Below are positions 27,374 to 27,570 of a DNA stretch of 64,000 nt, in pieces (within the stretch, counting starts at the first letter, position 1; each line of letters opens with the position of its first letter). The stretch lies in contig OZ024745.1 in the NCBI GenBank assembly GCA_964016885.1, forward strand, positions 130,696,001 through 130,760,000. Reading direction: 5' to 3'. A program made the translations under genes and the position numbers. The notes beneath the pieces are model-generated. The model was not told the DNA's origin and did no database searches. It saw only the letters and a program-made list of their open reading frames with translations. This DNA is from Eledone cirrhosa (lineage: Eukaryota).

Positions 27374-27570
27374 AACAAAGGAATTGTGGTAAGGAACCAG
27401 ATGGACCATAACGCACCAGAGTACTCAATACTTAGGGTAGTAGAGTGGGAAATAGGAAAAAGTATAACCCCGACGGCAGAGCTCAAGCCGTTTCGACGGC
27501 TATTTCTGAGTCCAGAAATAGCCGTCGAAACGGCTTGAGCTCTGCCGTCGGGGTTATACTTTTTCCTATA
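27374..27570 (-). mobile_element. Fold-back element, 'GUC' family
   Basis: Near-perfect palindrome at about 27453-27569 centred on TTTCTGAGTCCAGAAA; tail hairpin at 27423-27446. Confidence 0.8.

What the first reader, a model, noticed from the sequence alone, without database searches (positions are those of the whole stretch)
27453..27569. 'GUC' family: fold-back apex appears to be hammerhead stem II, removing the 5' half of the core
Seen: about 11 copies or fragments (11539, 12916, 17875, 27374, 28500, 37302, 44476, 44700, 50965, 54970, 55290). The best-preserved contain GAAA-CGGCU-loop-(A/U)GCCG-UC-GGGGU, i.e. the 3' half of a hammerhead with a full stem III and a GUC cleavage triplet. None has the CUGANGA half. 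Instead the palindrome centre is the hairpin GACGGCTAWTTCTG-AGTC-CAGAAWTAGCCGTC immediately before GAAA, where stem II would lie. Inference: cDNA snaps back at stem II and self-primes, producing the palindrome and inactivating the ribozyme in these insertions.
Basis: partly seen in the sequence, partly recalled or inferred. Interest (0 to 1): 0.75.

Follow-up and report, generated by a model that had tools for sequence, protein, structure and literature searches.

The report
Penelope stubs stopping inside their hammerhead
These palindromes are back-to-back stubs of a very abundant Penelope-type jumping gene whose full copies carry a complete variant hammerhead motif predicted to cut RNA, and most stubs stop in one 14-base stretch inside that motif, likely because the element's RNA begins there and is copied twice onto the two ends of one DNA break rather than folding back on its own stem.

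Summary
The repeat is the 3' end (pLTR) of a Hydra-clade Penelope-like retrotransposon (719-aa RT/GIY-YIG ORF). The 5' half-core is not missing from the family: it reads YUGANAA (U3-A8, a published variant), occurs 5,612 times genome-wide and is present in window copy 55290. The clustering of apices in stem II is real and strong: 47 of 53 tail-anchored arms that reach it stop in a 15-nt zone; exact counts fall from 56,814 to 5,926 across it. Snap-back on native stem II is refuted: its predicted product occurs 0 times against 8,144 tight fold-backs. The short-ended arm reaches further upstream as often as the tailed arm (29:25), and arms pass or stop together. Best reading: two cDNAs from one RNA run off a shared 5' end inside loop II and are joined head to head; that end (a start site) is inferred, no RNA was seen. 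The scan reached a similar reading earlier for other families in this genome. New variant of a known kind.

The parts
27374..27508 (-). Long ('tailed') arm of the focal insertion: element positions +97 to -36, ending in a (TA)n tract
   Evidence: tail end matches 26,074 genome-wide hits of the tail-(TA) junction
27509..27566 (+). Short arm of the focal insertion: element positions -40 to +17, followed by TATATA
27495..27526 (.). Palindrome centre: two facing copies of the 3' strand of stem II, blunt junction (-36/-40), 4-nt unpaired centre; not native stem II
   Evidence: same junction in 11539 and in L123, L271
27527..27554 (+). Hammerhead 3' half: GAAA, 5-bp stem III with 9-nt loop holding GAGCTC, GUC triplet (C17 = 27549), stem I 3' strand
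11539..11732 (.). Second palindromic stub, other subfamily: short arm on minus (to -36), long arm on plus (from -40)
55087..55351 (+). Non-inverted short-ended copy that passes the stop zone and keeps the whole hammerhead motif (start coordinate approximate); triplet mutated to GUU
55248..55254 (+).
54978..55038 (+). Short-ended stub starting at about -42
12916..13142 (.). Stub with tail on both sides and an internal deletion between the two GCCGTC words
37300..37434 (.). Stub with non-overlapping arms: short arm on minus to about -43, joined to a tail fragment on plus
17874..17908 (+). 35-nt short-ended fragment (stem III to +17)
28477..28574 (-). Old diverged fragment (about 70% identity)
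44698..44862 (.). Diverged palindromic stub of the same superfamily
44471..44640 (.). Related but distinct copy, apex at the GAAA, stem III with a swapped pair (CCGC/GCGG); its exact 25-mer occurs once in the genome
50960..51077 (.). Diverged stub with short inverted arm and tail

Best explanation
The palindromes are 5'-truncated double insertions of a Hydra-clade Penelope-like retrotransposon, one arm ending at each of the element's two fixed 3' ends (+17 and +97), and they likely form when both ends of a cut in (TA)n prime a cDNA on the same element RNA, both cDNAs likely run off that RNA's 5' end at about -40 to -44 inside hammerhead loop II, and the two ends are likely joined head to head. 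Shown: element identity, the complete U3-A8 hammerhead motif in longer copies, the two fixed ends, the stop zone, the shared fate of the two arms, blunt or 1-nt-microhomology junctions. Inferred: that the stop zone is an RNA 5' end (about 0.65; a transcription start about 0.45, a nuclease cut in loop II about 0.2), that the arms are separately primed, and that the motif self-cleaves. A transcript starting there would lack the 5' half-core, so its 5' copy of the ribozyme could not cut, while its 3' copy could.
For: Identity: complete insertion L031 with inverted truncated copy, partial tandem, open 719-aa ORF and (TA)n ends; Hydra motifs (against PMC8557442 section 11). Two ends: 68 of 72 classified junctions have one long and one short arm, matching the two RT start sites and both-strand extension of the anole element (PMC11167929). 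Stop zone: 47 of 53 at -33..-47, 5.9% per nt against 0.3-0.6% per nt downstream; nested genome counts 56,814 / 16,029 / 8,202 / 5,926 for arms reaching -34 / -41 / -44 / -47, then 5,612 at the core; 84 of 100 consecutive arms stop. Separate priming: short arm further in 29, long in 25, 14 ties; short arm further by about 120-1,500 nt in 6 of 17 long pairs; non-overlapping arms in at least 8 of 90 tail-anchored insertions. One template: 0 of 79 arm pairs differ at subfamily site -6 where 101 arms have A and 57 have T; 22 head-to-head pairs (44 hits) among the first 100 intact-core hits although only 16 of 100 arms pass the zone; of 62 zone-stopping arms whose partner reaches the zone at most 1 has a partner passing it. 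A 257-bp tandem array also restarts at -43 (L036). Weak hints of a start site: 7 of 8 one-nucleotide junction inserts are C or G; a TATA-like word lies about 30 nt upstream of the modal stop (-39/-40) and an Inr-like word at -44 (consensus recalled). Hints of cleavage on a sense template: 5 of 71 arms start at 0..+2; among 52 distinct (TA)n-joined starts read by eye, 12 start at +1 against 3, 4, 0, 4, 2 at -2..-6.
Against: No RNA was examined. The upstream limit (-44) is also the last paired base of the predicted upper hairpin, so a stall fits the boundary equally well. Stops are spread over about 11 nt with modes at -34, -36 and -39/-40, not a single peak. The cap signal is mixed: before (TA)n-joined starts G and C occur about equally (4-5 against 5-6, by eye), and microsatellite composition confounds it. 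3 of 14 long pairs are tight mirrors (centre 5-11 nt) at arbitrary places, the tailed arm reaching further in all 3, one with 3-nt microhomology, as self-priming predicts. Later asymmetric deletion of palindrome centres could mimic arm asymmetry and was not excluded. For the ribozyme: 24 of the first 100 intact cores have a C3-A8 mismatch (counted), there is no compensatory change among 13 aligned copies, the fold is no more stable than shuffles (z -0.41; -1.04) and Rfam gives no match. Starts at +1 could be a pause at the stem I/III junction. All junction samples come from the first 66 Mb of contig C1 and from young copies that match exact patterns; part of the 72 junctions were fetched through spacer-limited patterns.
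Confidence: 0.6

Rival explanations
1. Same element and two separately primed cDNAs, but the stop zone is a reverse-transcriptase stall at the upper hairpin of stem II (perhaps protein-bound), on an RNA that continues upstream.
For: The zone coincides with the 3' strand of the predicted upper hairpin (-37..-44) and the 3 nt before it; the hazard falls to near zero once that strand is passed.
Against: The hairpin is A/U-rich and weaker than stems that the RT passes; independent stalls at 84% would give about 27% discordant pairs, against at most 1 of 62 arms seen; on one RNA a stalled first RT should leave the second arm ending further downstream, but either arm reaches further. In two other palindromic families in the window the apex lies about 65-75 nt upstream of the core, not in stem II.
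Confidence: 0.2
2. Self-priming, but on chance 0-3-nt micro-hairpins: the tailed cDNA ends in the zone, folds back and copies itself to the short end; later deletions in the unstable palindrome scramble which arm looks longer.
For: Arms always share subfamily and private variants; 3 of 14 long pairs are tight mirrors with the tailed arm further; the window holds a 1,198-nt perfect mirror of another family; self-priming was proposed for Penelope palindromes (PMC3846280 passages).
Against: Needs later deletion to explain 29 of 54 junctions, 6 of 17 long pairs and the non-overlapping arms; many junctions have centres of 0-2 nt, too tight for a priming hairpin (listing); does not by itself explain why cDNAs end in the zone.
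Confidence: 0.14
3. One reading: cDNA snaps back using native stem II pairing.
For: Apices do cluster in the stem II region.
Against: Predicted junction at the lower stem: 0 genome-wide against 8,144 tight fold-backs; native loop II is not kept at the centre in the listed junctions whose arms both reach -41 (listing, about 55 sites read by eye); arms stop before the loop, so the native 5' strand is never copied.
Confidence: 0.02
4. The palindromes are a self-propagating MITE-like or SINE-like family copied from a few palindromic masters.
For: Very high copy number; some junction types recur, for example -40/-34.
Against: The same junction types recur in different subfamilies and each subfamily has many junction types (23 junctions of subfamily A fall into more than 15 types); arms are exact pieces of an autonomous element with an open ORF; stops also occur without inversion.
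Confidence: 0.04

Closest known systems
Hydra clade of C-terminal EN+ Penelope-like elements (Craig et al. 2021, PMC8557442; passages, section 11, supplement searches and part 2 of 59 read)
   Same: RW[K/R], DKT, CxCx5C linker, no CCHH, CxxC and CxH around the catalytic E and N, (TA)n target, hammerhead in the pLTR, inverted truncated copy and tail. P0063, which by eye matches the published Hydra-2_Amil N-terminus almost letter for letter, is 41% identical over 96% of the ORF.
   Different: All Hydra hammerheads in the paper's File S2 have a CUGANGA core and a stem II of 3-7 bp; this one has U3-A8, a stem II domain of about 54 nt and a 5-bp stem III with a palindromic 9-nt loop. Tail is 80 nt, not 30-40. 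Unit about 3.1 kb. The paper's passages give no fixed truncation zone. This family's 3' half-core word was not found in the supplement.
U3-A8 minimal hammerheads of Schistosoma Cercyon elements; opposite-strand dual motifs (Cervera and De la Pena 2014, PMC4209133; parts 1-2 of 4 read)
   Same: U3-A8 in place of C3-G8, type I topology, G10.1-C11.1, palindrome in loop III, location in pLTRs.
   Different: Those are minimal motifs with little or no stem III; this one can fold as a monomer (the hammerhead is the minimum-energy fold of the L031-type copy).
Poseidon element of Anolis (Frangieh et al. 2024, PMC11167929; parts 1-2 of 4 read)
   Same: Two internal RT start sites that define the tail; both target strands cut and extended; hammerhead just upstream of the start sites.
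   Different: Different clade; that work did not address where cDNAs end or how inverted arms are joined, and found no RNA ends at the cleavage site.
Penelope of Drosophila virilis and Adineta vaga PLEs (PMC2377424, PMC3846280; passages read)
   Same: Internal promoter in the pLTR; head-to-head inverted pLTRs with palindromic junctions.
   Different: In D. virilis the start lies upstream of the intron and of the whole hammerhead; for A. vaga self-priming on an antisense template was proposed. Here the inferred start would lie inside the hammerhead on the sense strand.
L1 twin priming and retroviral strong-stop cDNA (both recalled, not read here)
   Same: Two primers on one RNA giving an inversion; short cDNA that runs off the RNA 5' end.
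   Different: L1 arms do not overlap and have no fixed second start; no tRNA primer, RNase H or integrase here.

Membership tests
Penelope-like element, EN+ | Single ORF with RT and C-terminal GIY-YIG endonuclease | tested here: met
   L031:5580-7736, 719 aa, YRDD and VIY...YIG; Pfam gave no hit, so this rests on motifs and on 2,054 homologues
Penelope-like element, EN+ | pLTRs in partial tandem, inverted 5'-truncated copy, optional tail | tested here: met
Hydra clade | RWK-type motif and DKT | tested here: met
   RLRWRTFF (R for K) and SDKTG (definition)
Hydra clade | CxCx5C linker, CCHH absent, CxxC and CxH flanking E and N | tested here: met
   CNCPDRSIC, one cysteine between VIY and YIG, CNLC and CKH
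Hydra clade | (TA)n insertion target | tested here: met
Hydra clade | Canonical CUGANGA hammerhead | tested here: not met
   YUGANAA in 100 of the first 100 hits; the paper uses this trait to link Hydra to canonical PLEs, not to define the clade
Hydra clade | Placement in an RT tree with named reference clades | not tested
   reference sequences were only seen in a supplement, not held as data
Neptune clade | CX2-5CxxC linker and CCHH motif | tested here: not met
   my first label, dropped
Type I hammerhead ribozyme | Core N3-U4-G5-A6-N7-N8-A9, G12-A13-A14, A15.1-U16.1, H17 with a 3-8 pair | tested here: met
   U3-A8 in 76 of 100, C3-A8 mismatch in 24 of 100; position 7 takes all four bases
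Type I hammerhead ribozyme | Three stems around the core | tested here: met
   minimum-energy fold for L054, within 0.8-3.5 kcal/mol for 4 other copies; 92.9% of cells paired
Type I hammerhead ribozyme | Covariation supporting the stems | tested here: inconclusive
   0 pairs with changes on both sides in 13 close copies; one swapped stem III pair in copy 44476
Type I hammerhead ribozyme | Self-cleavage after H17 | not testable with these tools
   only indirect: excess of starts at +1
MITE | Terminal inverted repeats of a DNA transposon, constant internal sequence | tested here: not met
   unequal fixed ends, variable centre, parent is a retroelement
Non-LTR retrozyme | Non-coding tandem monomers each with a whole hammerhead | tested here: not met
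   stubs lack the core; the whole motif sits on an ORF-bearing element

The most novel reading that the evidence does not exclude
The element's capped mRNA starts inside its own hammerhead. The 5' copy of the ribozyme is thereby disarmed and keeps the RT start sites, the 3' copy cuts at C17, and the 44 nt between start and cut become a terminal repeat like the retroviral R region. Reverse transcription from +17 and +97 makes strong-stop cDNAs that must jump to the cut 3' end to rebuild pLTR-ORF-pLTR; the tens of thousands of stubs are failed jumps. This would give the Penelope hammerhead a defined job and fix the template as the sense strand.
Probability: 0.22. Interest if true: 0.78.

Novelty: new variant of a known kind. 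Interest (0 to 1): 0.45.

Why it matters
How Penelope-like elements build their head-to-head ends, which RNA strand they copy and what their hammerhead does are stated as open in the papers read (PMC8557442, PMC3846280, PMC11167929). This family offers more than 56,000 young arms with a base-level stop map and gives sharp predictions (5' ends at -35..-45, a cut after position 0, both arms from one RNA) that one CAGE library or one in vitro reaction can test. Practically, such stubs look like MITEs or microRNA hairpins to annotation pipelines, and CUGANGA-only searches miss this ribozyme. The element class, the U3-A8 core and inverted copies are all known, and earlier notes of this scan propose the same run-off model for other families, which caps the interest.

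Tried and rejected
Rfam: no hammerhead among the 150 listed of 241 window matches at E<=1; none at E<=10 on an intact copy. Pfam: no hit on the ORF. RNA: no RNA holder listed; laying DNA contigs of three runs added nothing on relatives; neither is evidence on expression. Search for relatives of copy 44476 returned only that copy. Neptune label: rejected on motifs. Splice acceptor or branch point in the zone: rejected, since a fixed upstream exon does not follow the arms. Endonuclease cut at TA or ATT: rejected as main cause, stops are not confined to those words. Strand-transfer chimeras between subfamilies: none evident in 30 intact copies (by eye). A Fisher test printed was badly set up and is not used, and its Poisson value used 13 where a recount gave 12; over-extends arm ends because it pools references and is not used for end positions; the row '-48..-101' is an artefact of reference length (true ends -113 to beyond -1,350). 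Literature: six searches and passages of a 2026 octopus repeat annotation (PMC13282606: 0 hits for palindrom and hammerhead) showed no description of a fixed stop zone inside a Penelope hammerhead; subscription papers, Repbase/Dfam and preprint supplements were not searchable and may hold it.

Full report
Numbering. Element positions are given relative to the predicted cleavage nucleotide C17 (= 0). The window lies on contig C5 of a 3.0-Gb genome rich in TA and CA microsatellites; the host was not identified.

1. Observation. The 11 places are real copies or fragments. The full 3' half is in 3 of 11, the quoted hairpin in 2 of 11, CTGANGA in 0 of 11, but copy 55290 has TTGAAAA at 55248-55254 in the position of the 5' half-core. 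The family is huge: 56,814 exact matches of a 19-mer at -34..-16 and 26,074 of the tail-(TA)n junction; reversed controls gave 0.

2. What it is. Of the first 30 genome hits, 12 continued upstream into shared sequence. Locus L031 is a whole insertion: (TA)n, an inverted truncated copy, a partial tandem copy, an open ORF of 719 aa from the first ATG, a 3' UTR, the pLTR and (TA)n. [quoted passage not shown] I first called it Neptune; earlier scan notes pointed to Hydra, and the motifs listed in section 11 of PMC8557442 are all met: RWR, DKT, CxCx5C, no CCHH, CxxC and CxH. A database protein that by eye is nearly the published Hydra-2_Amil is 41% identical. No tree was built. The element has two fixed 3' ends, +17 and +97; 68 of 72 classified inverted junctions pair one of each, the tail pattern described in PMC8557442 (passages) and explained by two RT start sites in PMC11167929.

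3. The ribozyme. A pattern that left core positions 3, 7 and 8 free found 5,612 copies; in the first 100, position 8 is always A, position 7 takes all four bases, position 3 is U in 76 and C in 24 (counted from the listing). U3-A8 is a published variant in Schistosoma Penelope elements (PMC4209133) but is not among the Hydra hammerheads tabulated in the supplement of PMC8557442. The hammerhead is the minimum-energy and centroid fold of the L031-type copy and lies within 0.8-3.5 kcal/mol of the minimum in 4 other copies. Against: z-scores of -0.41 and -1.04, no compensatory change in 13 close copies, no Rfam match, a mismatched 3-8 pair in a quarter of copies. Native stem II is about 54 nt: a lower helix, an internal loop and an upper hairpin whose 3' strand is -37..-44. 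Indirect sign of cleavage: 5 of 71 tail-anchored arms start at 0..+2 (2.3% per nt against 0.3 and 0.6% on either side); among 52 distinct (TA)n-joined starts near the site (100 rows collapse to 56 ends, 4 duplicates dropped, read by eye) 12 start at +1, 4-5 at +2, 5-11 at 0 or -1 and 3, 4, 0, 4, 2 at -2 to -6. A pause at the stem I/III junction would look the same.

4. The stop zone. Of 90 consecutive tail-anchored arms (90 of the 100 listed), 53 reach -33 and 47 of these stop at -33..-47; the other 6 run to -113 or far beyond. Nested exact counts are 56,814, 16,029, 8,202 and 5,926 for arms reaching -34, -41, -44 and -47; 16 of 21 intact copies that match the shortest word also match the longest (counted), so about 14% truly pass, in line with 16 of 100 consecutive arms. 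Of the 84 that stop, 81 abut an inverted partner and 3 abut (TA)n; (TA)n-joined stops show the same zone with a mode near -39.

5. Test of snap-back. Folding back on native stem II would leave an inverted arm followed by the native 5' strand and loop. That junction occurs 0 times, against 8,144 fold-backs with a spacer of at most 15 nt. Arms stop before the loop. Junctions are mostly blunt (23 of 72) or share 1 nt (17 of 72); 25 carry inserts. Any self-copy needs the first-made arm to contain the second; only the tailed arm can be first. Yet the short arm reaches further upstream in 29 junctions, the tailed arm in 25, with 14 ties; in 17 long pairs the short arm is further in 6, by about 120-1,500 nt; and at least 8 of 90 insertions have arms that do not overlap. 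Later deletion could produce some of this and was not excluded. In favour of some self-priming, or of a shared broken RNA end, 3 of 14 long pairs examined are tight mirrors at arbitrary positions with the tailed arm further in each.

6. One template. Arms never differ at the subfamily site -6 (0 of 79 pairs; 101 A, 57 T) and share private variants. They also share their fate: 44 of the first 100 intact-core hits form 22 head-to-head pairs within 7 kb, with 1 tail-to-tail pair, and at most 1 of 62 zone-stopping arms with a partner in reach has a partner that passes (P 0.03 counted per insertion at a pass rate of 0.16). The stop is thus a property of the template or complex, not an independent chance per pass. 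An RNA that simply ends there explains this most easily: each RT runs off, the second displacing the first cDNA, and the ends are trimmed and joined. A stall cannot be excluded because -44 is also the last paired base of the upper hairpin. Hints for a capped start are weak: 7 of 8 single-base inserts are C or G, TATA-like and Inr-like words are suitably spaced (consensus recalled), but G and C are about equally common before (TA)n-joined starts. A 257-bp tandem array restarting at -43 (L036) fits a jump from an RNA end; it is one case. I noted the RNA-end idea before seeing that earlier notes propose it for other families; those notes are not independent evidence.

7. Comparison and novelty. 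Works like: a Hydra-clade element making the known inverted-copy-plus-tail insertion. Member of: Hydra by all protein motifs tested, with a non-canonical hammerhead. Not a MITE and not a retrozyme. New in degree: a long-stem U3-A8 hammerhead in this clade and a 14-nt stop zone inside it that removes the core from most copies. Six literature searches showed no account of such a zone; subscription papers and repeat databases were out of reach. Papers seen: PMC8557442 (passages, section 11, supplement searches, supplement part 2), PMC11167929 (parts 1-2 of 4), PMC4209133 (parts 1-2 of 4), PMC2377424, PMC3846280, PMC13282606 (passages), bioRxiv 10.64898/2026.07.22.740005 (part 1 of 5); L1 twin priming and retroviral strong stop are recalled.

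8. Verdict. Observation partly confirmed; interpretation partly supported, its mechanism replaced. Identity about 0.97; full best explanation 0.6; interest 0.45.

Noticed in passing
window 57941-60395: Perfect 1,198-nt mirror (1-nt centre inside the ORF) of another Penelope-like family, with a canonical CTGAAGA hammerhead on each arm (60135 +, 58143 -) and a tail of about 60 nt on one side only; the endonuclease has two cysteines between its VVY and YIG words, unlike Hydra.
   Followed up: partly
window 27760-28110 and 46287-46644: Palindromic stubs of a third family with a CTGATGAG core; the apex lies about 65-75 nt upstream of the core, so apex-in-stem-II is not general.
   Followed up: partly
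window 60560-60592: Further minimal hammerhead-like word with CTGATGA and GAAA.
   Followed up: no
L036:3440-4230 (G000:C1:27009440-27010230): Three tandem units of 257 bp running from -43 to +214 (into the ORF start), capped by an inverted short arm that also ends at -43: a template jump, a small RNA circle or a later duplication.
   Followed up: partly
L041/L074 (G000:C1:491900-493100): Tailed arm ends at -40 while the inverted segment starts at -44 next to (TA)n and runs upstream: a non-overlapping inversion primed in loop II.
   Followed up: partly
window 23443-24350: Element with 166-nt terminal inverted repeats, 96% alike, 576 nt apart.
   Followed up: no
window 29078-34056 (minus) and 6946-8522 (plus): Non-LTR retrotransposon remnants with a restriction-like endonuclease end, three near-identical tandem 3' ends separated by (AAT)n tracts; R4/Dong-like label recalled, not tested.
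   Followed up: no
L057, L058, L044, L070 and others: About a quarter of intact cores have C3 opposite A8, a mismatch in the 3-8 pair, in a subfamily that still amplified.
   Followed up: partly
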